Below, piece by piece: positions 4,933-51,756 of a stretch of 64,000 nt of DNA. The stretch lies in the IMG/VR virus record IMGVR_UViG_3300025327_000015. One strand, given 5' to 3'. Source of the stretch: a virus (taxonomy: Duplodnaviria; Heunggongvirae; Uroviricota; Caudoviricetes). Position 1 is the first letter of the stretch. Each line of letters starts with the position of its first letter. The notes beneath the pieces were generated by a model. It was given only the letters and a program-made list of their open reading frames with translations. It had not been told where the DNA came from and did no database searches. A program made the translations under genes and the position numbers.

Positions 4933-5186
4933 CAGTTACGGAAATGTGCTACCTGTGGAATAAAGACAACAACCTCTAACACGATTGCCTCGACTACAAG
5001 CTGGCTCAATCGTCCTTTGGCACTTGTCGGAGCAACGACAGTCTCGACTGGCTCCTGACTAAGACGGCCCTTGGCACTCGTTGGGGCAACAATGCTCTCA
5101 ACTGGTTCTTGACTGATACGTCCTTTGGCATCGGTGGGAGCAAGGACGCCCTCGACAGGCAGTTGTGAGATGCGATCATTCGCCAT
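4932..5186 (-). CDS. small protein with three 17-aa tandem repeats
   Basis: PTSAKGRLSQEPVEtvVA repeated 3x; coincides with 51-bp DNA tandem repeats. Confidence 0.35.
   Translation of the reverse strand: MANDRISQLPVEGVLAPTDAKGRISQEPVESIVAPTSAKGRLSQEPVETVVAPTSAKGRLSQLVVEAIVLEVVVFIPQVAHFRN
4990..5165. repeat. about 3.5 imperfect 51-bp tandem repeats
   Basis: ctcgact...cctttggcac...ggagcaacgac units repeated head to tail. Confidence 0.6.
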
Positions 5187-5189
5187 AGT

Positions 5190-6215
5190 TTAAGCTGTAA
5201 TCTTTACGCCGAATTCAGCACTATTTACATCACTGATTGCCCAGGCGCCCCCGCCAGGCTTTGTCTCCCGGATATCCGGATAATATGTATATGAGGTCGA
5301 GAGCGTCTTATCGGCGCTGTCCACCTCGGTAGCCGAGACTCGTGCGACGCTGACAATGGAGCGCACGCCCGCATCCGTCTTGCGCGCATAGGGAAGAATC
5401 TGCACTCCGTATACCGTGCCCGTAGTTGGGGTCAGGTTGCCGAAGGCATAGGTATCTTTGTCACCGATGTCCGAAGACTCGACGTAGTCGGTATCTCCGT
5501 TCGGAGCCGATTCGTCCACAAGCAGGTAGTTGTCTACCTGGTTACCGTCTGAGCCATCGAGCTGGCTGGAGTTCCCGTTCCCGCTCGGAAGAATCGCCTC
5601 GACGCGAACGTCGCCGAGGAAGTCGTTAGTCGGCGCGCCGCCCGTGCCGTCGCAGACGTAGAGATCGTCAAAGTCCCACGAGACTCCTAGAGCCGGGCCG
5701 GTTGGGCCGATCCTAACCTGGTCTGCGGTGGCGTTGGCCGTATTCTTGGTATCGATGCTGGACAGGTTGAGGTCGGTAACGCCGTTAACCTTGGTGACGA
5801 TGACGCCGGAGGCGTCGCTGATCGTCGCCTTGATCTCGATGTAGTAGAAGGCGCTGAGCGAGAGCACAATCGTCCCGAGACCGAGGCTCGTGCCGTTCCT
5901 GGTGGCGCGGAGCTTTCCGTCCGAGGTCACTCTCAGATCGACCTGTGTCGTACCGGCGTCAAGAAGATTGATGATGGCGGTGTCGTTACCAGTAGTAGGG
6001 TACGCCGACATCCGAAACGCCACGCCCACGAACCAGGTCGCCTGGCTGTCCAGGAACTTCGTGAGTATCTGGGTCGCCAGGTTGGTCGCCCGGAAGCTGG
6101 CGGTACCGTTTCTCCCGTTCCCGGCGGAGATCGTAGCGGAGGTCTGTGCGTTCCACTTCGAGAGAACGTCGGCGGTGACGTAGTGGTCAAACGAGTCGAT
6201 GAATCTCAGAGCCAT
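5190..6215 (-). CDS. tail/fibre-associated structural protein
   Basis: 341 aa, Thr/Ser/Asn/Gly-rich, sits between collagen-like fibre and fibre paralog. Confidence 0.35.
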   Translation of the reverse strand: MALRFIDSFDHYVTADVLSKWNAQTSATISAGNGRNGTASFRATNLATQILTKFLDSQATWFVGVAFRMSAYPTTGNDTAIINLLDAGTTQVDLRVTSDGKLRATRNGTSLGLGTIVLSLSAFYYIEIKATISDASGVIVTKVNGVTDLNLSSIDTKNTANATADQVRIGPTGPALGVSWDFDDLYVCDGTGGAPTNDFLGDVRVEAILPSGNGNSSQLDGSDGNQVDNYLLVDESAPNGDTDYVESSDIGDKDTYAFGNLTPTTGTVYGVQILPYARKTDAGVRSIVSVARVSATEVDSADKTLSTSYTYYPDIRETKPGGGAWAISDVNSAEFGVKITA

Positions 6216-6225
6216 CTAATCTCCT

Positions 6226-7358
<1,133 letters not shown>

Positions 7359-7359
<1 letters not shown>

Positions 7360-8582
7360 CAGATTGCATCCTGATCAGGAGAAGCCTCAAACTCGCCCAA
7401 TGCCTCTACGGCATCATCGTCGATCTCGATGACATAACTATAGATACGCTGTGCCCCGGAAGAGATAACTCTTGCTTTGTCTCCGACATTAATCGTAATG
7501 AGATCCCCGATATCAAAATCTCCGGGACCAAAATCACCACCACGAACAGGAGTGATATACACCATTTTTCTCGGTGTAGCTCGCAATAAACTCTCAGTAT
7601 TCCAAAGAGATACATAGAGAGGCCGTACTGAAGCCTCACTTCCGAAGTTGTCGTAGATGGAGATACTCATGAAGACACCCAATTCTTCACGAGATGTAAC
7701 AATAAGCTCTCCGAGCGGACCTACTGGGGTAGGAAAGGTGATGCTGGACCCCGTAATGCTCGTTCGCCAGTGCTGTTGATCAAGTCGTGGACCGAGGTAG
7801 TACCAGATCTTATTTCCAATTGTCGTCATGTCTTCAGAACGACGTAGCAAACGAGCATTGAAATCACCTGTTGCATAATCAAAATTGACAGTTGCTGTGC
7901 GATCAGTTCCATAATCACCGTTGAAACAATGAACACGGCCCATATTTATTCCAGAAACGATGGGTTCAATAACGATGTCGAGTTCTCCTGTGTTCGTAAG
8001 AAGAGATGCAATCTCGGCGATTGTCATTGGCCAGTTTGTAGGAGCACCCGAAAGATCTGAACCTCCAGTGGCATAAGTGCTTGAGGCAAGATCAAGAAAA
8101 AGTGGTCCCTCCGCGTCAGGAGGAGGACCCGCACCAGCGCTCTCAGAGGCATTTAGAATTTCCTCCATAATCTGCGGTCCAGAGAGATTACGGGCAAGAA
8201 AAGAAGGATCCGAGAAATTCCCTGCATCACCTGAATAAGAATTAACAAGATCACGGGCTGGACGGTAACGCCATACGACCATAGGGTCGTAGCAAGTAAC
8301 TCTGGTATAGACCATGTCCTCATCCCCCTCTTCTTCCAGCGTCCAAACAAACCCGTGAAAGAAAAGGCCGGTGCTATCGAGTGTCACCGAGAGCATCCGA
8401 TAGCCGGTACAGAGAAGGGGACGGCCGTCGGACTGAATCTCATTGACCAGATAAGAAGGAACAGTAAACGAACACTCAGAAGGACGATTTAGCCGCCGTT
8501 TGAGACGTTTGCTCATGGCGATATCGGCGATATCAGCCAATGCTGTCCCGTCGCGCATTCGTAGAATAAAGGAAGCTGCCAT
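7359..8582 (-). CDS. tail (baseplate/tip) protein
   Basis: 407 aa downstream of TMP-Dit block; position-based call. Confidence 0.35.
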
Positions 8583-25372: not shown

Positions 25373-25605
25373 GCTAAAGCTCCACACTCATTTCATGCCC
25401 GCCCTATACACTTTGATTCGCCTCCGGCAAGAGGCGATGAGAGATGGGCCGAAGAGGAATTGTTCTCACTGGTCAAAGCGGCAAGGCCCCGAAGTACGCC
25501 GCACGGAGCACTAGTGGCTCCGTAAGATCGATTCTTCACACCACGCCCTCTCTCTGTTAGATTTACTCCTGCGAATGGGTCGAAGTGAATGGTTCATCCG
25601 GTACT

Positions 25606-25690
25606 ACCGGGGTAGCTCAAGGGTAGAGCACTGGCTTAGAGCCAGAGGTTAGTGGTTCGAATCCACTCCTAGAACAACCATTGACATAAC
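25606..25690 (+). ncRNA. tRNA-like element (D-arm, anticodon-like hairpin with loop cttagag, T-arm) lacking a pairable acceptor stem
   Basis: gctc-aagggta-gagc; ctgg-cttagag-ccag; agtgg-ttcgaat-ccact; flanking 7-mers accgggg and cctagaa are not complementary. Confidence 0.3.
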
Positions 25691-25705: not shown

Positions 25706-26209
25706 ATGGGTTATCATCGGCCCATGCGGTCAGTTGAAGAGCGTTTCTGGGAGAAAGTAGATCGCTCAGGAGACTGCTGGCTTTGGATCGGCACAAAAGA
25801 CAAGCACTACGACTATGGTCGCTTTCGCATTGGAACAAAATCAACTGACAAGAAAGAGCGTGCTCACCGTGTAGCATGGATGTTGATTTTTGGCCCAATC
25901 CCAGATGGCATGTGGGTACTTCATCACTGTGATAGACCTGCCTGTGTTCGTCCAGAGCATCTCTTCCTCGGCACAAACTCAATGAATCAAAAAGATGCAT
26001 ATCGTAAAGGTAAACATGACTATCTTCACAAACAAGGTCGCAATAGCGGAGAAAAAAATGGAAGCTCGCGACTTACTAAAGAACAAGTTCTGGAAATACG
26101 TACAAGTCATAAGTCACAGTATGCGCTCGCAAAACGATTTGGAATCTCACAGCCAGCTATCTCATACATCCGATCAGGGAAGACCTGGCGACACTTGCTA
26201 GAGTGCTAA
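25706..26209 (+). CDS. HNH endonuclease with C-terminal HTH
   Basis: HRVAWMLIFGPIPDGMWVLHHCDRPACVRPEHLFLGTNSMN HNH_3 motif; similar to 8583..9038 product. Confidence 0.65.
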   Translation: MGYHRPMRSVEERFWEKVDRSGDCWLWIGTKDKHYDYGRFRIGTKSTDKKERAHRVAWMLIFGPIPDGMWVLHHCDRPACVRPEHLFLGTNSMNQKDAYRKGKHDYLHKQGRNSGEKNGSSRLTKEQVLEIRTSHKSQYALAKRFGISQPAISYIRSGKTWRHLLEC

Positions 26210-26334
26210 TTGCGAGTGGGCCGGAGGATCTACGGGTTATCTTCTGTCAAAAGACAACCCCGTATCCGTAATCACGCCCCTCGTCTGCTAATCTCCTGAG
26301 CGCGAGTGGGTCGAACGAGATTCGGTTCTCCCGT

Positions 26335-26390
26335 CATTGGTTCGATTCCAATCGCGCCCATATCACGGGCGCGTAGCTCAGTTGGTAGAC
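26335..26390 (+). ncRNA. permuted tRNA-like module upstream of rsr (candidate Y RNA tRNA-mimic domain)
   Basis: attgg-ttcgatt-ccaat cgcgccc a / tatcac / gggcgcg ta gctc agttggta ...; acceptor strands perfectly complementary; followed by tcctc-GGAA-gagga tetraloop hairpin. Confidence 0.45.
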
Positions 26391-26601
26391 GCAGAGTCCT
26401 CGGAAGAGGAACCCCCGAACTCACAACATATCCCTCGCGATTTGCATCGCTTTCTGTAGATGTGGTACAGTTACAACTGCTACTGAGCCGAAGGGTCAGT
26501 CGGTTATCTTGGCAATAAGAGCAGCCCGTGACGCTCGGGACACCCGACTCCCACACCATGCTCGTAGCTTCAAATCAACTCTTGCCGGGAGGTACAACAC
26601 G

Positions 26602-28182
26602 ATGTCTGATTATCTGACTCGCTACGGAACACGCGTCACGCCGCAGTCTGAGCGGATGCGTGAAGATCAGGTTCTCAACGAAGCTGGCGGCTTTGTTTGG
26701 GAGATCGACGCCTGGGCGCGGATGCGTCGTTTCCTAATTCTCGGAAGCGAAGGGGGATCGTATTACGCTTCCGAATTCCAGGCAACGAAGGATTCGGCTG
26801 CTGCTGTACGCCAGTGCATCAAGGAAGATGGTCTGCGTGCAGTAAAGGAGATCGTAGAAATCTCGCAGAAGGGCCGGGCTCCAAAGAATGATCCGGCACT
26901 CTTTGCGCTTGCCTGCGCGATTTCACTGGGTGATAAGGAAACGCGCTCGGCAGCTGCTGAGGCGCTACCTCTTGTCGCCCGTATTGGAACACATCTCTAT
27001 CATTTCGCCGCCTACGCGGAGACGATGCGCGGTTGGGGCCGGACGATGCGCTGGGCTGTTCAGAACTGGTATGACCGCAATCCCGAGCAGCTTGCACTTC
27101 AAGCGATCAAGTATCGTCAGCGAGATGGCTGGTCGCACCGTGATCTCTTGCGCCTAGCACATCCTTCTCGAAATGAAGAGACAGCTTCGCTCTTTAACTG
27201 GATCACGAAGGGTGTTCCAGAGGAAGGCAAATCTCTATCTGAAATCGTGGGAGGTTTTGAGCAGGCACAAAGCGCTACCACGCCACAGATAACGGCAAAT
27301 CTTGTCCGCGAGTATGGTCTACCACGCGAAGCACTCCAGACTGAGCATCTGAACTCGAAGGAAGTCTGGGCTGCGCTTCTAGAGATGCAGATGCCGATGA
27401 CGGCCATGCTACGTAATCTGGCCACCATGACACGAGTCGGAATTCTCGACTCGAATGATCATCGCAAGCTGGTTCTGAATGCCTTCGATAACCAGGAGGC
27501 GATCACAAACTCGCGTCTGCATCCGCTCGCCATTCTGATCGGAATGGAGACGTATGCACAGGGACACGGTATGCGTGGTCAGCATACTTGGAGCCCAATC
27601 GCTTCCATCGTGGACGCTCTCGACGGTGCTTTCTATAAGGCGTTCGGGAACGTGCAGCCTACTGGCAAGCGCCTACTCGTAGGTGTGGATGCTTCTGGAT
27701 CGATGCGAAGCGGAGTGATCGCAGGTGCTCCAGGAATGATGCCGGTTAAGGCAGCAATGGCAATGGCGCTCGTTTTCACTGCCACCGAGCAGGATGTCGA
27801 AACGGTGCTCTTCGATACCTCACTCTCGACATTCCCACTCTCTGCTCGACAGCGACTGGACGACGTTGTTCGTCGCCATCCAGGCCATGGACGAGGAACA
27901 GATGTCGCGCTTCCGATGCAATACGCAACAGCGAAGAACCGGCAGGTTGATGGCTTCGTTCTTCTAACGGATATGCAGACTTGGGCTGGTTATCAGCATC
28001 CAGCACAGGCGCTTCAGCAGTATCGCGAGCGTAGCGGTATTCCAGCACGCCTTGCCAGCGTCGCACTGATTGCTAATCGCTGGCAGGTGGCAGATCCACA
28101 AGATCCGCTAGCCTTCGAAGCAATCGGATTCGACACCGCTACACCAGAACTCGTTTCCGGCTTCGTTGCTGGTGAGTTCTAA
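26602..28182 (+). CDS. rsr: Ro60/Rsr ortholog (TROVE domain + vWA domain)
   Basis: Collinear similarity to human Ro60 throughout ([26 protein letters not shown] vs [75 protein letters not shown] MIDAS); GGGAGG RBS 7 nt upstream of ATG. Confidence 0.9.
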   Translation: [526 protein letters not shown]

Positions 28183-28355
28183 AGAAATCGGAGGATGCAT
28201 CTCCTGCCGAGACACAAGATGCATCCTCCGAGATATACGCGGGTAGCTCAGCCATGAAGACAATGCATCCTGCATATTTAGCAGGAATCATTGATGGTGA
28301 GGGCTCAATCTTTAATGGCCTCTTTGGGATGGGGCCATCATCCCTGTGATCAGCC

Positions 28356-28916
28356 ATGAAAAAAATCCCAACCATTTTTGAGCGCGACTGGGAGGGAGAT
28401 CGCTCGCGGGTTCTCAATCGAATTGTTCCCGGTTGCGAATGGGTATTCACTGGTGAGGGCATCGCTACGCGCAAATACGACGGCAGCGCTTGCATGGTCG
28501 AAGACGGTGTGCTCTGGAAGCGGCATGAGGTTCGTAAAGGAAAGCAAACTCCCGAGGACTTTCGTCTTGTTGAGGATGACTTGGAAACCGGCAAGACAGT
28601 CGGATGGATTCCCGTGAGCGACGGTCCGGAGGATAAATGGCATCGGGACGCTTTCGCCCGCGATATGACTCTGGCAGACGGAACCTATGAACTAGTTGGA
28701 CCAAAAGTTCAGGGCAATCCTGAGGGCTTCGAGCAGCACACTCTCATTCGTCATTCAGATGCTGAAACGTTTATCGTCTTGCGGCGTACTTTTGAAAGAA
28801 TCCGCGATTTGATCTCTGAACTCGATGTGGAAGGCTTCGTCTTCCAGCATCCTGACGGACGCATGGCGAAAATCAAAGGACGAGATTTCGGAATCAAACG
28901 TTCGAGTAAAGAATGA
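28356..28916 (+). CDS. small ATP-dependent nucleotidyltransferase, ligase family (KxDG ligase, RNA-ligase-like)
   Basis: Motif I KYDGSAC, motif IV EGFVFQ, motif V MAKIKGRD; 186 aa; stop overlaps next start (ATGA). Confidence 0.55.
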   Translation: MKKIPTIFERDWEGDRSRVLNRIVPGCEWVFTGEGIATRKYDGSACMVEDGVLWKRHEVRKGKQTPEDFRLVEDDLETGKTVGWIPVSDGPEDKWHRDAFARDMTLADGTYELVGPKVQGNPEGFEQHTLIRHSDAETFIVLRRTFERIRDLISELDVEGFVFQHPDGRMAKIKGRDFGIKRSSKE

Positions 28917-29284
28917 AACATTATACTCCTATAGGATGGATTTCTGAGCCAGAAGATGCGATTAAAGGCTGGGGTAACGAAGACGACTACAAAGATGTTC
29001 TTGAACAACTTAATACGACACCAGAAGATTTCCTATCAGCTGTCGTATATTCACTTACTTGGAATCTTAAAGACGCTGCTGCCTCGATTACAGGTATCTA
29101 CTGTGATCAATGGTGTGGAGTAGCTGGCAGCGGCGCCCCTCTTGAGACGCACGGTCTTCTCGCGATGACGGGAGAAGAGGGGAAGATAAATACTTGGTTT
29201 CAATGTGATAAACCTGAATGGGGAGTCGCAGCGACTTGGAAAGCCTTTGTAGAAAAGTTTGGGCTGCGAACGCAGGATGATTAA
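28913..29284 (+). CDS. hypothetical protein translationally coupled to ligase
   Basis: 123 aa; ATGA overlap with upstream gene. Confidence 0.35.
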   Translation: MKHYTPIGWISEPEDAIKGWGNEDDYKDVLEQLNTTPEDFLSAVVYSLTWNLKDAAASITGIYCDQWCGVAGSGAPLETHGLLAMTGEEGKINTWFQCDKPEWGVAATWKAFVEKFGLRTQDD

Positions 29285-29724
29285 CTCATGATTCTTGCGC
29301 GTTACATCCTACTTCTATACGGACCTGAGAAATCTAATAAAGAAACTGAAATACGTCTACCGCGTGTACTAGCAGACATGCCCGCATACCTAGAGGAGGC
29401 TGAGGAAAATCTGAATGATCTGCTTCCAGCAGACTTCAGAGTAGAGATTATTGAGAAATCTTAATGGTTAAATGGCGAAGCAAAAACACGATCCAGGAGT
29501 TATAAAAAGTAAGAAGAATCAGAAGAAACTGCCAAAAGACCTTCTCTGGAAAGAACGGAGGAAGCGGGCGTTGCCTCGGCTCTATCCCGGATGGGATGAG
29601 GATAAGTATCCACTTAGCGTTGTAAAAGCAGAACTCAAGCGCCGAATGATGTCCGAAGCCGAACGTCATACTTCTTCTTAGCCCGTGATGGGTTGCCCGT
29701 GAAGGGCCGAGCAAGGAGGGCAAG

Positions 29725-30003
29725 ATGCCCAAAGAAAGTGTGTACGGTTCTGTTCTTCCGCTCGATGAGTCTATTCCGGCTCATGAGTATGAGATGCAAC
29801 AGCCGATCATTGAAGTGCGCTGGGGCCGGTATCCAGAAAGCGATGTCCAGATCGTGACTCGGCGGAAAGGCTATGAGGTCGCGGTGCAAGAACCGATCAC
29901 ATGCGATTATGGCCTTTATGTCGATCTTGATCGTCCAGCGATCAATGATCTAATCCGTAAACTACGACGGGCTCGCGATCAGGCATTCGGTCGAGACGAA
30001 TAG
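29725..30003 (+). CDS. hypothetical protein
   Basis: 92 aa ORF, AAGGAGGG RBS upstream. Confidence 0.3.
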   Translation: MPKESVYGSVLPLDESIPAHEYEMQQPIIEVRWGRYPESDVQIVTRRKGYEVAVQEPITCDYGLYVDLDRPAINDLIRKLRRARDQAFGRDE

Positions 30004-30013
30004 AATCTGATTT

Positions 30014-30098
30014 GGAGGCTCGCAAGGCTGGCGTGCTCATCCGCCTTGAAAGCGGTGATGGTCGAAAGGCCGTACAGGTTCGATCCCTGTAGCCTCCG
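30014..30098 (+). tRNA. tRNA-Ser-like (anticodon UGA), class II with long variable arm
   Basis: Acceptor ggaggct/agcctcc, anticodon loop cttgaaa, variable hairpin ggtc-gaaa-ggcc, T-arm acagg-ttcgatc-cctgt. Confidence 0.5.
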
Positions 30099-30101
30099 CT
30101 T

Positions 30102-30184
30102 GGAGGGTCAAGTCTCAAGGAGAGACGGCGGGCTGCTAACCCGTTCGCGGTGCAAGCCGTGGGGTTCAAATCCTCGGCCCTCCG
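30102..30184 (+). tRNA. tRNA-Ser-like (anticodon GCU), class II
   Basis: Acceptor ggagggt/gccctcc (one G-U), anticodon stem cggg/cccg with loop ctgctaa, long variable arm, T-loop ttcaaat. Confidence 0.45.
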
Positions 30185-30310
30185 TGATAGAATTTCATTT
30201 CCGTGATAGGGGTGCATAGGGCTTTGGCGATCGTGCCCGCAGTCCGCGATTCGGGATGGTGACCTGAGCAGTTCGCGGTAAACGAGCGTCCTCTGGTGGA
30301 CCGGACAACC

Positions 30311-30336
30311 GGCCAACAAGAGCGGCTCTTGGAGCC
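30311..30336. terminator. bidirectional terminator hairpin between convergent genes
   Basis: aagagcggctc-ttgg-gagccgctctt perfect 11-bp stem, T-rich flank on minus strand. Confidence 0.45.
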
Positions 30337-30343
30337 GCTCTTG

Positions 30344-30730
30344 TTATTCAGGATATGTCTGATTCAGCCATTTGATACCACGTACTTGAATAATGAAAGC
30401 AATCTCTGACTGAGAAAGTCGTTTGCGCAGCATCTTTCGCTCACGATATCTGACATCACTTTCTCGTGAATCAATCAGATCATGGCAAGCTCTACAAAGA
30501 GGCACAATATTTGCATGTGCATTACGTACCATACGCAGATGCACAGGCTGCTTAAGAAACCATGATTCAGCGACAAGATGATGCCTGGTAAGTGGGCGCA
30601 CAAATGCGGGCCGAAGACACATTCGACAATGACCTTCAGCCCGCATTTTGTGTTCCGTCGTCTTCGGCGATTGCAGCGATACCGAAGGACGAGGAGCCCA
30701 GCGGTGCTCGATAACGAGCTTTCTGCTCAT
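30344..30730 (-). CDS. HNH endonuclease
   Basis: CRMC...TRHHLVAESWFLK...NIVPLCRACH. Confidence 0.55.
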   Translation of the reverse strand: MSRKLVIEHRWAPRPSVSLQSPKTTEHKMRAEGHCRMCLRPAFVRPLTRHHLVAESWFLKQPVHLRMVRNAHANIVPLCRACHDLIDSRESDVRYRERKMLRKRLSQSEIAFIIQVRGIKWLNQTYPE

Positions 30731-31179
30731 CCAAGAACCTTTCGCACCGCCGCCTCCGGCAACCAGTAAATCTTGTCAGACGGATTTTCGACGGCAGCCG
30801 TCAGCGCGACGGCAGCCAGAATATCACCGTCGAGCTTCGCCTTCTCAATCAGATACCAGCCGTAGCGCCGACGAATCTTGATTGGGATATCGGTGAGACG
30901 GACTCCTGCAACCGCCCCACCATTCCGGTCGGGCGTCACAGTGTCCTCCTTTGCGTTTAGCCCGAAAAGTCCTTGATGGGATTTTCGCTTTGGCGCTCGC
31001 AGTTATCCTGGAGCGTTTTTGCGATTGATCCTGCAAACTCGATACCGACCAACTCGTCTAGTAACGAGAAATCGAGTGTTATTCCCTCATGCGGGAATGT
31101 CGAGTAGGCCCAAGCTCTGGATGGCTTGAGCCTCAGATACAGGACTTCTCCGGTGTCATAACGCATGACGCTCATTGAC

Positions 31180-31249
31180 ACGGCTGGTAGGAATCGAACC
31201 CACTTCGTACCGGGTTGGAGCCGGACGAGACACCATGTCTCAGCCGTAT
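31180..31249 (-). tRNA. tRNA-Trp-like (anticodon CCA) with compact D-arm
   Basis: Acceptor acggctg/cagccgt perfect; anticodon stem ccgg/ccgg loop ctccaac; T-arm gtggg-ttcgatt-cctac. Confidence 0.45.
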
Positions 31250-31326
31250 AGTGGGCGGATTTTTCGAAGACCAGCACCGTCCAGCTGGCTTACGAACAGA
31301 TGCCTCGTGAGACATCTACCTTCTAG

Positions 31327-31402
31327 TAGCGCGCCTGGGAGTCGAACCCAGAGACTTCGGCTTATGAGGCCGACGCAGGAAGTCCGGTCCTGCTCGCGCG
31401 CA
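31327..31402 (-). tRNA. tRNA-Met (anticodon CAU)
   Basis: D-stem gcag/ctgc, anticodon stem tcggc/gccga loop ctcataa, T-arm ctggg-ttcgact-cccag, acceptor 6/7 bp with terminal mismatch. Confidence 0.55.
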
Positions 31403-31550: not shown

Positions 31551-32468
31551 ATGTGGTATGTGCTAACAGTTCTCGCTGGACTAATCATCGTAATAAGTTT
31601 GACGCTTGGATTGGTACTGGGCGGCTCTCGTGCATTTGAAGATAGAGCCGGTCGTCAACAGACGACACCCGATTGGCGCAAGATGGGATTCGCTATCGCA
31701 AGCGGAACCGCAGTTACATACGTTCTGTTGTCGATGCTATTCATCTGGCATTCTGTGGAAGCAGGACATGTCGGGCTAGTACGTGCGTTTGGTGCATATA
31801 CCGGCGTCAAAGAAGCAGGACTAGTTACAACTTGGCCATGGGAATCTATCGAAGAGGCCCGCATCCGCAATGCGTCTCATGAGTTGCTCATGGATGGCGG
31901 AGTCAATGGATCAGCCGCGAGTCAAGAATCACAAGAAGTATTTGTGGTTGCCACGATCAACTATTCACTAGAGAAATCGTGCGTGCAGGAGTTGTATACC
32001 AACTATGGAGCGGCGTATTACGAGACGATCATTGAACCAAGAGCGAAACAGCTATTCAAGGCGGAATCGGTGAAGTTCTCGGCAGTTGATATTCTGCCCA
32101 ATCGTGAGAAGATCCGGCGTGAAACACAGAGTGAATTAGCAAAGCAGTTGGATCAGTTCTGCGTTCGAGGACTGGATTTTCTTTTGACGAATGTCGGTTT
32201 TAGTCCAGAGTTCACTGCAGCTATCGAAGAGAAGCAGGTGGCGACACAGCAGGCCGCTGCTGAAAAGAACCGCGTAGAGATTGCCAGGCAGCAGGCTAAG
32301 CAAGTTGTCATCGCAGCGGAAGCGGACCGTAAAGCGTTCTTCAAGCGTCAGCGCAATCTGACTCCACTGCTCGTAGAATGGGAACGCATCCAGAAGTGGC
32401 AGCCTCAGATCATCTATCTCCCCAGTGACACGATCATCGGACTTCCTGGTCTAGAGAGTAATAGATGA
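31551..32468 (+). CDS. SPFH/band-7 (prohibitin/HflK-like) membrane protein
   Basis: N-terminal TM helix then VGLVRAFGAYTGV...VFVVATINYSL... SPFH core and C-terminal coiled-coil. Confidence 0.65.
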   Translation: MWYVLTVLAGLIIVISLTLGLVLGGSRAFEDRAGRQQTTPDWRKMGFAIASGTAVTYVLLSMLFIWHSVEAGHVGLVRAFGAYTGVKEAGLVTTWPWESIEEARIRNASHELLMDGGVNGSAASQESQEVFVVATINYSLEKSCVQELYTNYGAAYYETIIEPRAKQLFKAESVKFSAVDILPNREKIRRETQSELAKQLDQFCVRGLDFLLTNVGFSPEFTAAIEEKQVATQQAAAEKNRVEIARQQAKQVVIAAEADRKAFFKRQRNLTPLLVEWERIQKWQPQIIYLPSDTIIGLPGLESNR

Positions 32469-51075: not shown

Positions 51076-51756
51076 TGGAAGGCGTCATTATTGAAATCCG
51101 CGCAGCTGAAGGCGGTGACGATGCAAAAGATCTTGTCAAAGAACAGTTTTCTGTTTACATCACCTACTGCAAAAGAAGGCGTCTTTGACTATTCAATACT
51201 TGATGAGCGATCTGGAATGATCGTTGCTGAGATCCTTGGCGACGAGGCAGAAGTAGCATTTAGCAATGAATCCGGTGGTCATCGTTGGCAACGCATTCCA
51301 CCGAATGAGAAACGAGGTCGGCGTCATACCTCAACTGTCACCGTCGCTGTCTTCCCGATTATTCCTCCCCAAGATTGGGAATTTTCTGAAGGTGAGATCG
51401 AATGGGAGGCCATCTTAGGCACGGGTCCAGGAGGTCAGGCCCGCAATAAAACAGCAAATGTCATTCGAGCCACACATCTTCCAACGGGCATCTCAGTACG
51501 GATCTCAGATTCACGCTCACAGTGGCAAAATCGTCAGACTGCGTTTCGTTCTCTCGCAGCTCGTATCTCCGCTTACCATAAAGATGAACATTTGAAACGA
51601 GAAGCAAAAGAACGCCGAGAGCAGATCGGAAGTGGAATGCGAGGAGACAAGATTCGTACTGTCCGTCTACAAGATGGACGAGTTGTAGATCATCGAAGCA
51701 AGAAGAAGATGTCAATCGAACGCTATCTAGCCGGGCATCTCGAAGATCTGCACTAG
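51075..51756 (+). CDS. class I release factor homolog (PrfH/RF2-like, GGQ motif) requiring +1 frameshift at 51183..51189
   Basis: Frame 0 (ATG 51075) encodes MEGVIIEIRAAEGGDDAKDLVKEQFSVYITYCKRRRL then TGA; +1 frame continues DYSILDE...GTGPGGQARNKTANVIRATHLPTGISVRISDSRSQ; slip site CGU CUU UGA C with AGAAGG 3 nt upstream. Confidence 0.7.

What the first reader, a model, noticed from the sequence alone, without database searches (positions are those of the whole stretch)
28356..28916. Minimal KxDG ligase (RNA-ligase-type motifs; RNA substrate inferred from context) downstream of rsr
The 186-aa protein carries nucleotidyltransferase motif I (KYDGSAC), motif IV (EGFVFQ) and motif V (MAKIKGRD). 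It is far smaller than typical DNA or RNA ligases. It sits where rtcB usually sits next to rsr, which suggests an RNA repair or sealing partner for Rsr. It is translationally coupled to a 123-aa unknown ORF.
Basis: partly seen in the sequence, partly recalled or inferred. Interest (0 to 1): 0.65.

Follow-up and report, generated by a model that had tools for sequence, protein, structure and literature searches.

The report
Phage RLIG1-type minimal RNA ligase
The 186-residue gene is a real, intact member of the already described RLIG1 (C12orf29) family of small ATP-dependent RNA ligases that is common in phages and bacteria, so it is ordinary, and its position next to the Ro60-like rsr gene is peculiar to this phage rather than a conserved partnership.

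Summary
ORF 28356..28916 (+) encodes 186 aa with KYDGSAC (K40), EGFVFQ (E159) and MAKIKGRD (K172/K174), and overlaps a 123-aa ORF by ATGA.

The RNA-ligase reading is supported.
- Full-length match to PHROG 14301 "RNA ligase", E 5.7e-61.
- Homology to the crystallised Yasminevirus RLIG1 (9c6l): E 2.4e-14 for the single sequence, 3.7e-21 for the profile.
- All catalytic residues defined in 9c6l are present and invariant in relatives.

The family (Pfam PF17720, formerly DUF5565) has more than 5,000 sequence clusters of about 185 aa. Homologues in isolated phages are already annotated "RNA ligase", and published assays show 5'-P/3'-OH RNA and tRNA-half ligation.

The "Rsr partner replacing RtcB" idea is not supported by comparative data.
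- 1 of 84 viral ligase loci has Rsr within 8 kb.
- 0 of 80 bacterial ligase loci have Rsr within 8 kb.
- 0 of 80 viral Rsr loci carry this ligase within 10 kb.

The 123-aa ORF is a real small family. It is adjacent to the ligase in only 2 of 8 distinct sequence contexts (9 loci).

Verdict: new member of a known kind, low interest.

The parts
28356..28916 (+). RLIG1-type (C12orf29/PF17720) ATP-dependent 5'->3' RNA ligase, 186 aa, nucleotidyltransferase domain only
28473..28493 (+). Motif I KYDGSAC. K40 is the predicted AMP-accepting lysine; D42 is a predicted metal ligand.
   Evidence: Aligned to Yasminevirus K73/D75 (PMC11494293 section 8). D42 and G43 are invariant and K40 is >=90% conserved in 39 homologues.
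28521..28523 (+). Motif Ia arginine R56 (contacts the ribose 3'-OH in 9c6m)
   Evidence: Aligned to Yasminevirus R89. Invariant in A1.
28689..28691 (+). Motif III glutamate E112 (in YELVGPK)
   Evidence: Aligned to Yasminevirus E174. Invariant.
28752..28754 (+). Motif IIIa histidine H133 (in LIRHSD)
   Evidence: Aligned to Yasminevirus H195. Invariant.
28830..28847 (+). Motif IV EGFVFQ (E159)
   Evidence: Aligned to Yasminevirus LEGVVLH, E240. E159 and G160 invariant.
28863..28886 (+). Motif V MAKIKGRD (K172, K174)
   Evidence: K172 aligned to Yasminevirus K253. K172 and K174 invariant.
28913..29284 (+). 123-aa conserved phage protein of unknown function; its start overlaps the ligase stop (ATGA)
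26602..28182 (+). Rsr (Ro60 orthologue), 526 aa; upstream neighbour. Context only, not a demonstrated partner.
   Evidence: TROVE plus vWA_Ro60. NCBIfam Rsr 494 bits, below cut-off. Called start from source contigs.
26328..26397 (+). YrlA-type Y RNA tRNA-like module (T arm, closed acceptor stem, D arm) upstream of rsr; context
   Evidence: Rfam RF02553 29.3 bits, below the gathering score of 69, E 2e-4 in the local search. The same element lies upstream of the Rsr gene in L015, 33.5 bits. Conserved core in the alignment.

Best explanation
The gene encodes a stand-alone ATP-dependent 5'->3' RNA ligase of the RLIG1 (C12orf29) family, consisting of the nucleotidyltransferase domain only.

Inferred mechanism, by homology:
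1. K40 attacks the alpha-phosphate of ATP to form ligase-(lysyl-N)-AMP. R56, E112 and H133 hold the ribose. D42, E112, E159 and K172 organise Mg2+ and phosphate.
2. AMP is transferred to an RNA 5'-phosphate, giving AppRNA.
3. An RNA 3'-OH attacks and seals the break.

The most likely substrates are breaks in structured RNAs, above all tRNA anticodon loops, whose two ends are held together by the RNA's own fold. That would explain how an enzyme with no separate RNA-binding domain can work. In the phage it probably repairs tRNA or other translation RNAs cut during infection (counter-defence or RNA maintenance). It sits in a plus-strand accessory island that also carries five tRNA genes, Rsr and a Y-RNA-like element.

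Shown here: family membership, fold, an intact active site, and the absence of conserved partners. Inferred only: ATP use, RNA specificity, tRNA as the target, and the biological role.
For: - Sequence: PHROG 14301 'RNA ligase' covers 1-182 of 186 aa at E 5.7e-61. Pfam RLIG1 PF17720 is the only Pfam hit, and most 57-70%-identical homologues carry it.
- Structure-linked homology: phmmer to 9c6l/9c6m (Yasminevirus RLIG1) gives E 2.4e-14, and the family profile gives 3.7e-21.
- Active site: K40/D42, R56, E112, H133, E159 and K172 align with Yasminevirus K73/D75, R89, E174, H195, E240 and K253, whose mutation reduced adenylylation and ligation (PMC11494293 section 8). All are invariant in 39 homologues except K40, which is >=90% conserved.
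- Published biochemistry: human RLIG1 ligates 5'-P/3'-OH ssRNA but not nicked DNA. Several bacterial and viral homologues ligated tRNA halves (PMC11494293; PMC9931718).
- Annotation: phage homologues at 37-47% identity are annotated RNA ligase (Mycobacterium phage Collard gp74, Cellulophaga phage phi10:1 gp057, Ralstonia phage RP12).
- Local context: tRNA genes at 25605, 30014, 30102, 31177 and 31326. No promoter-like or terminator-like site lies on the + strand between rsr and the ligase.
Against: - This protein has not been assayed, and I could not establish that any ~185-aa member has been. The paper names its tested homologues only as 'R. bacterium' and 'C. phage'.
- The Pfam PF17720 score for this sequence is below the gathering threshold (18.4 vs 25 bits).
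- tRNA genes lie within 3 kb of the ligase in only 4 of 84 other viral loci, so a tRNA link is not general in the sampled phages.
- No end-healing enzyme (polynucleotide kinase/phosphatase) and no RtcB was found in the 64-kb window. Breaks with 2',3'-cyclic-P/5'-OH ends could therefore not be sealed without a host enzyme or a gene in the unseen ~45 kb of the genome.
- Human RLIG1 can also leave AppRNA (Ap2N 'caps') in vitro (PMC13598233), so sealing need not be the only output.
Confidence: 0.85

Rival explanations
1. The ligase is a dedicated functional partner of the adjacent Rsr/Y-RNA module. On this reading the phage carries an rsr-Y RNA-ligase RNA-repair operon analogous to Salmonella rsr-yrlBA-rtcBA, with RLIG1 in place of RtcB. 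The ligase would act on RNAs captured by the Rsr ring or on the tRNA-like Y RNA itself.
For: - Same strand, 173-nt gap, and no terminator-like or promoter-like site between rsr and the ligase.
- A YrlA-type element lies directly upstream of rsr.
- One other phage contig (L015) carries a YrlA-like element, Rsr and a 60%-identical ligase in one same-strand block about 6 kb apart.
- rsr is operonic with an RNA ligase (RtcB) in Salmonella (PMC7790460).
Against: - Rsr lies within 8 kb of the ligase in 1 of 84 other viral loci and 0 of 80 bacterial loci.
- The ligase lies within 10 kb of Rsr in 0 of 80 viral Rsr loci.
- In the isolated phages inspected, Rsr has no ligase neighbour, and the hit lists of Rsr phages and ligase phages show no name in common.
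- Related phages L009 and L016 share other genes with the window and carry the ligase, but have no Rsr within 8 kb.
- In L015 the two genes are separated by RusA, TPR/glycosyltransferase, HNH and methyltransferase genes.
- RLIG1 and RtcB use opposite end chemistries.
Confidence: 0.1
2. It is a minimal DNA ligase that seals nicks in phage DNA during replication or packaging.
For: - In L015 and some other phages the gene lies among replication and recombination genes (DnaB, RusA).
Against: - There is no OB domain and no room for one: 176 of 186 residues align to the NTase-only RLIG1 structure.
- All closer structural neighbours are RNA ligases.
- Human RLIG1 does not seal nicked DNA (PMC11494293).
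Confidence: 0.03
3. Its main output is RNA 5'-adenylylation (AppRNA / Ap2N 'capping') rather than sealing. It would mark or protect 5'-monophosphate RNAs such as phage tRNAs.
For: - Human RLIG1 converts 5'-pRNA to Ap2N-RNA in vitro, and its knockout lowered basal Ap2N-RNA by about 20% (PMC13598233).
- Step 2 of the ligase pathway yields exactly this product, and an enzyme with no RNA-binding domain may often release it.
Against: - All residues needed for step 3 in relatives are retained.
- Viral and bacterial homologues completed tRNA-half ligation in vitro (PMC11494293).
- Nothing in this locus points to capping.
Confidence: 0.05

Closest known systems
RLIG1 / C12orf29 family (Pfam PF17720, formerly DUF5565); crystal structures 9c6l and 9c6m of Yasminevirus RLIG1; human RLIG1
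   Different: It is about 90 residues shorter than the Yasminevirus chain (186 vs 277 aa) and, from my own knowledge, about 140 shorter than human RLIG1 (about 325 aa). It lacks the N-terminal extension and internal insertions. Motif V reads KxK rather than the viral KxH. This sequence scores below the Pfam gathering threshold. It is not assayed.
PHROG 14301 phage 'RNA ligase' (Mycobacterium phages Collard, Gengar and Thyatira; Cellulophaga phage phi10:1 gp057; Ralstonia phage RP12)
   Same: Same ~185-aa architecture end to end (profile positions 1-186 of 186), 37-47% identity, already annotated as RNA ligase. In Collard the next gene also overlaps the ligase stop by 4 nt.
   Different: Those phages have no Rsr or tRNAs beside the ligase. 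Their downstream ORFs are unrelated to the 123-aa ORF here.
T4 Rnl1 / Pnkp tRNA repair pathway
   Same: Same three-step lysyl-AMP chemistry on 5'-P/3'-OH ends. Phage-encoded. The RLIG1 authors predict that viral RLIG1 counters host tRNA-cleaving immunity in the way Rnl1 does (PMC11494293).
Salmonella rsr-yrlBA-rtcBA RNA repair operon
   Same: An Rsr gene, a YrlA-type RNA and an RNA ligase gene lie together on one strand.
   Different: The ligase belongs to an unrelated family with the opposite end specificity. There is no RtcA, RtcB or RtcR. The arrangement is not conserved among relatives.

Membership tests
RLIG1 / C12orf29 RNA ligase family (PF17720) | Significant sequence similarity to family models or members | tested here: met
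   PHROG 14301 E 5.7e-61 full length. 9c6l phmmer E 2.4e-14 and profile E 3.7e-21. Homologues at 57-70% identity carry PF17720. Caveat: this sequence's own PF17720 score is 18.4 bits, below the gathering score of 25.
RLIG1 / C12orf29 RNA ligase family (PF17720) | KxDG motif I with the adenylylated lysine | tested here: met
   K40-Y-D42-G43 aligned to Yasminevirus K73-T-D75-G. D42 and G43 invariant, K40 >=90% conserved.
RLIG1 / C12orf29 RNA ligase family (PF17720) | Motifs Ia (Arg), III (Glu), IIIa (His), IV (Glu) and V (Lys) as defined in 9c6l/9c6m | tested here: met
   R56, E112, H133, E159 and K172 align to R89, E174, H195, E240 and K253 (PMC11494293). All are invariant in A1.
RLIG1 / C12orf29 RNA ligase family (PF17720) | Minimal NTase/ATP-grasp-like fold without an appended OB or RNA-binding domain | tested here: met
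RLIG1 / C12orf29 RNA ligase family (PF17720) | ATP-dependent auto-adenylylation and joining of 5'-P to 3'-OH RNA, with no nicked-DNA sealing | not testable with these tools
   Biochemistry exists only for the human enzyme, Yasminevirus and a few unnamed bacterial and phage homologues (PMC11494293; PMC9931718).
ATP-dependent DNA ligases (including minimal Lig E / Chlorella virus type) | NTase domain followed by an OB domain carrying motif VI | tested here: not met
Rnl1, Rnl2 and Rnl5 RNA ligases | NTase domain plus a family-specific accessory domain (Rnl1/Rnl2 C-terminal domain, Rnl5 N-terminal OB) | tested here: not met
rsr-Y RNA-RNA ligase repair operon (Salmonella rsr-yrlBA-rtcBA type) | Rsr gene with an adjacent Y RNA | tested here: inconclusive
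   Rsr domains are clear. The YrlA hit scores 29.3 bits against a gathering score of 69, but it covers the T arm, closed acceptor stem and D arm, and recurs upstream of Rsr in L015.
rsr-Y RNA-RNA ligase repair operon (Salmonella rsr-yrlBA-rtcBA type) | RtcB ligase and RtcA cyclase in the operon | tested here: not met
   No RtcB-like sequence in the 64-kb window by tblastn. No RtcA or RtcB family appears among the Pfam hits of window ORFs.
rsr-Y RNA-RNA ligase repair operon (Salmonella rsr-yrlBA-rtcBA type) | Conserved genomic linkage of the ligase with rsr | tested here: not met
   1 of 84 viral and 0 of 80 bacterial ligase loci have Rsr within 8 kb. 0 of 80 viral Rsr loci have the ligase within 10 kb.

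The most novel reading that the evidence does not exclude
This phage lineage has assembled its own RNA-repair module: a YrlA-type Y RNA, Rsr, an RLIG1-type ligase, and the 123-aa protein. The 123-aa protein has a weakly dsRBD/HPF-like fold and would supply in trans the RNA-binding surface that the NTase-only ligase lacks. The module would be a 5'-P/3'-OH counterpart of the bacterial rsr-yrlA-rtcB operon. The recurrence of the 123-aa family directly beside an RLIG1-type ligase in L177, in the opposite order and with RtcB 0.6 kb upstream of the 123-aa ORF homologue (1.0 kb upstream of the ligase), would then reflect a real ligase-accessory pairing.
Probability: 0.08. Interest if true: 0.55.

Novelty: new member of a known kind. 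Interest (0 to 1): 0.22.

Why it matters
It adds one more metagenomic phage copy to a family that is already named, crystallised and partly assayed, so by itself it changes little. Two modest points may be useful.

1. The ~185-aa prokaryotic and phage form is essentially the bare catalytic core of a polynucleotide ligase: 176 of 186 residues superpose on the "minimal" viral RLIG1. That makes it a convenient subject for asking how an NTase domain alone selects RNA ends.

2. This phage places the ligase beside Rsr, a Y-RNA-like element and tRNA genes. It is a natural system in which a link between Ro60/Y RNA quality control and 5'-P/3'-OH RNA sealing could be tested, even though comparative genomics gives no sign that such a link is general.

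Tried and rejected
- **Nucleotide search.** Megablast of 26000-30500 against 50,697 phage records found nothing. The phage has no close cultured relative.
- **Conserved ligase neighbours.** I clustered 1,134 ORFs within ±4 kb of 81 viral ligase loci and 747 ORFs around 80 bacterial loci. No partner recurred. The largest viral cluster (8 loci) is a C-5 DNA methylase; the rest are capsid, portal, terminase, DnaB, integrase and similar genes.
- **tRNA linkage.** The ProFaNA paper (PMC10364804) reports tRNA genes in >20% of bacterial DUF5565 neighbourhoods. In my viral sample only 4 of 84 loci had a tRNA within 3 kb.
- **Rsr linkage.** Tested from both sides and rejected. A first single-sequence Rsr scan of viral contigs found nothing and had to be repeated with an alignment.
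- **RtcB co-occurrence.** tblastn with the L177 RtcB as query matched one more ligase locus in each of the two ligase sets (viral L082, bacterial L117) and nothing in the window.
- **ORFs downstream of the ligase in Collard and phi10:1.** Not homologous to the 123-aa ORF.
- **LAGLIDADG remnant.** The short ORF between rsr and the ligase resembles one by eye, but Pfam gave no hit. An apparent conservation of that stretch in L009 was a tblastx extension artefact.
- **MFE folding of the pre-rsr region.** z -2.5. It recovered the closed acceptor-like hairpin but not a clean tRNA-like fold.
- **Identity of the tested phage homologue.** I could not establish which phage ('C. phage') Hu et al. assayed.

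Full report
**1. Observation**

ORF 28356..28916 (+) is intact, starts with ATG and encodes 186 aa. The three quoted motifs are present:
- KYDGSAC at residues 40-46
- EGFVFQ at residues 159-164
- MAKIKGRD at residues 170-177

The stop codon overlaps the start of a 123-aa ORF (28913..29284) in the sequence ATGA.

The gene upstream is an Rsr/Ro60 orthologue. It matches TROVE at E 2e-45 and vWA_Ro60 at E 2.5e-44. Its NCBIfam Rsr score is 494 bits, below the equivalog cut-off of 900. Its likely start is 26602, giving 526 aa, as called on the source contigs.

The window is part of a ~109-kb metagenomic tailed-phage contig that has been recovered several times (JGI, ENA, Logan). Structural genes lie on the minus strand. 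The ligase sits in a plus-strand island at about 25.6-32.5 kb.

**2. What the protein is**

*Sequence evidence.*
- PHROG 14301, annotated "RNA ligase", matches residues 1-182 against profile positions 1-186 of 186 at E 5.7e-61.
- The only Pfam hit is RLIG1 (PF17720, formerly DUF5565) at 18.4 bits, under the gathering score of 25.
- The large protein database returns 5,016 clusters at E<=1e-3. Nearly all of the 120 listed are 176-213 aa long, and most of the 57-70%-identical ones carry PF17720.
- Against the PDB, the only significant matches are 9c6l and 9c6m, "RNA ligase 1" of Yasminevirus. E is 2.4e-14 with the single sequence and 3.7e-21 with a 39-sequence profile.

*Fold evidence.*
- An AlphaFold2 model built on that alignment has mean pLDDT 94.3 and pTM 0.85.
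- Foldseek gives the same ranking.

*Active site.* The HMMER alignments pair window residues with the Yasminevirus residues that Hu et al. showed by mutagenesis to be needed for adenylylation and ligation (PMC11494293, section 8).

| Motif | Window residue | Yasminevirus residue |
|---|---|---|
| I | K40, D42 | K73, D75 |
| Ia | R56 | R89 |
| III | E112 | E174 |
| IIIa | H133 | H195 |
| IV | E159 | E240 |
| V | K172 | K253 |

All are invariant in the 39-sequence alignment except K40, which is conserved in at least 90% of sequences.

**3. What is already known about the family**

- Human C12orf29/RLIG1 was shown to be a 5'-P/3'-OH RNA ligase that works through lysyl-AMP and AppRNA intermediates (PMC9931718; PMC11494293).
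- It ligates single-stranded RNA but not nicked DNA, and it joins tRNA halves broken in the anticodon loop.
- "Several bacterial and viral" homologues did the same, and the Yasminevirus structure was described as a minimal RNA ligase fold lacking the Rnl1 RNA-binding domain (PMC11494293).
- Those authors predicted that viral copies counter host tRNA-cleaving immunity in the way T4 Rnl1 does.
- A neighbourhood study had already linked bacterial DUF5565 genes to RNA-related domains and tRNA genes (PMC10364804).
- In GenBank, homologues at 37-47% identity in Mycobacterium phages (Collard, Gengar, Thyatira and others), Cellulophaga phage phi10:1 and Ralstonia phage RP12 are annotated "RNA ligase".

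The gene is thus a new sequence of an already known kind. At 186 aa it is about 90 residues shorter than the crystallised viral chain, and it corresponds almost exactly to that enzyme's core.

**4. Context and the Rsr hypothesis**

The island contains, in order:

| Feature | Coordinates | Strand | Evidence |
|---|---|---|---|
| tRNA-Leu | 25605-25675 | + | |
| HNH endonuclease | 25706-26209 | + | |
| YrlA-type tRNA-like element, 29.3 bits (below gathering score) | 26328-26397 | + | |
| rsr | 26602-28182 | + | |
| ligase | 28356-28916 | + | |
| ORFs of 123, 58, (69) and 92 aa | 28913-30003 | + | |
| two type-II tRNA-Ser genes | 30014-30184 | + | |
| HNH gene | 30344-30730 | - | |
| tRNA-Trp and tRNA-Met | 31177-31402 | - | |
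| Band_7/SPFH protein | 31551-32468 | + | |

No promoter-like or terminator-like site lies on the plus strand between rsr and the ligase. Co-transcription is therefore possible but not shown.

I tested whether the rsr-ligase linkage is conserved, from both sides.
- *From the ligase side, viral loci.* Of 84 other viral loci carrying the ligase, with up to ±8 kb of flank, only L015 has an Rsr. It lies 6 kb away and is separated from the ligase by RusA, TPR/glycosyltransferase, HNH and methyltransferase genes.
- *From the ligase side, bacterial loci.* Of 80 bacterial loci from many phyla, none has an Rsr.
- *From the Rsr side.* Of the 80 best Rsr-encoding viral loci, with up to ±10 kb of flank, none has an RLIG1-type ligase, one has RtcB, and 25 have at least one tRNA.
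- *Isolated phages.* Rsr phages often place rsr beside tRNA arrays (Sixama, Phox), with no ligase nearby.
- *Related phages.* L009 and L016 share structural and other genes with the window and carry the ligase, but have no Rsr within 8 kb. L009 has an HNH gene immediately upstream of its ligase.
- *Any other partner.* Clustering all neighbouring ORFs revealed no conserved partner of any kind.

The ligase therefore behaves as a free-standing, mobile accessory gene. Its position next to rsr is a property of this phage.

RLIG1 needs 5'-P/3'-OH ends, whereas RtcB joins 3'-P or 2',3'-cyclic-P to 5'-OH. It cannot simply stand in for RtcB. No kinase/phosphatase, RtcA or RtcB was found in the window.

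**5. The 123-aa ORF**

It is a genuine conserved protein. There are 14 clusters at 43-76% identity, with invariant VVY-L-W and GIYCD-W motifs. The AF2 model has pLDDT 90.7.

Its homologues were recovered on nine further loci (L174-L182), representing seven distinct contexts because two short contigs (L176, L180) duplicate the neighbourhoods of L175 and L179.
- It is adjacent to an RLIG1-type ligase only in L177. There it lies immediately upstream of the ligase, with RtcB 0.6 kb upstream of it (1.0 kb upstream of the ligase).
- In L174 it is 7 kb from the ligase.
- Elsewhere no ligase is nearby.

Counting this window, that is 2 adjacencies in 8 contexts. The translational coupling is real here, but an obligatory partnership is not supported.

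**6. Mechanism, and what is shown versus inferred**

*Shown here:* family membership, fold, a complete active site, the absence of accessory domains, and the absence of conserved genomic partners.

*Inferred by homology:*
- ATP-dependent K40 adenylylation, transfer of AMP to an RNA 5'-phosphate, and attack by a 3'-OH.
- Preference for broken structured RNAs such as tRNA anticodon loops.

*Inferred from context and from the literature's proposal:* a role in repairing tRNA or other translation RNAs damaged during infection.

*Rivals:*
- Dedicated Rsr partner, probability about 0.1.
- DNA ligase, about 0.03.
- RNA 5'-adenylylating "capping" enzyme, about 0.05. This follows the in-vitro Ap2N-RNA activity of human RLIG1 (PMC13598233).

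**7. Verdict**

The "Rsr partner in the RtcB slot" interpretation is not supported by comparative evidence.

The gene is a new member of a known kind (RLIG1/PF17720/PHROG 14301). Interest is low, about 0.2. The residual interest lies in the extreme minimality of the enzyme and in the unusual local combination with Rsr, a Y-RNA-like element and tRNAs.

Noticed in passing
window 26328-26397 (+); L015 14429-14493 (+): A YrlA-type Y RNA tRNA-like module (T arm, loop-closed acceptor stem, D arm) lies just upstream of rsr. It scores 29.3 bits, below the Rfam gathering score of 69. An equivalent element (33.5 bits) lies upstream of the Rsr gene of a different phage contig, and the two share the core GGTTCGAnTCCA...GGGCGCGTAGCTCAGTTGGTAG. 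This fits the published finding that YrlA-like RNAs are encoded next to Ro60 orthologues in bacteria and phages (PMC4201824).
   Followed up: partly
window 51091-51756 (+): A phage-encoded 221-aa release-factor-like protein lacks the N-terminal part of RF1. It matches RF1 at 167 bits, RF2 at 112 bits and PrfH at 86 bits, all below the family cut-offs, and aligns to RF1 positions 157-334. A related phage fragment (L181) has an RF gene next to a LAGLIDADG_2 endonuclease gene. Its role is unknown (stop-codon handling or ribosome rescue?).
   Followed up: partly
L177 4952-7835: In another phage fragment, an RtcB gene (4952-6286), a homologue of the 123-aa ORF (6919-7284) and an RLIG1-type ligase (7287-7835) are clustered. 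One phage therefore carries both RNA ligase chemistries side by side. A NADAR-domain gene lies downstream.
   Followed up: partly
window 28254-28349 (+): A 31-codon ORF between rsr and the ligase reads MKTMHPAYLAGIIDGEGSIFNG..., resembling the first LAGLIDADG motif of a homing endonuclease. It could be a decayed remnant. Pfam gives no hit, so this rests on my reading of the motif only.
   Followed up: partly
window 25706-26209 (+) and 30344-30730 (-): Two HNH endonuclease genes lie within the plus-strand island that interrupts the minus-strand structural genes. A related phage (L009) has an HNH gene immediately upstream of its ligase. This suggests the island's genes move as homing-endonuclease-associated cassettes.
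   Followed up: no
window 31551-32468 (+): A 305-aa SPFH/Band_7 protein (E 1.5e-23) with an N-terminal hydrophobic segment lies at the end of the island. One Rsr-encoding viral locus (L186) also has a Band_7 homologue about 8 kb from its Rsr gene.
   Followed up: no
window 30014-30099 and 30102-30184 (+); 31177-31248 (-): ARAGORN calls two adjacent tRNA-Ser genes (TGA and GCT). Rfam matches them only to tRNA-Sec, below threshold (34-38 bits), probably because of their long variable arms. tRNA-Trp at 31177-31248 scores 28.8 bits, just under the tRNA gathering score of 29.
   Followed up: no
window 32.8-63.7 kb (35 ORFs, not mapped individually): Pfam hits among these ORFs include asparagine synthase, a Clp_N domain protein, NAD-dependent epimerase/dehydratase, several glycosyltransferases and methyltransferases, an N6/N4 DNA methylase, DUF6197 and a VWA protein. 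This is a large auxiliary gene load for a phage. Clp_N and DUF6197 genes recur near homologues of the 123-aa ORF in L174, L175 and L178.
   Followed up: no
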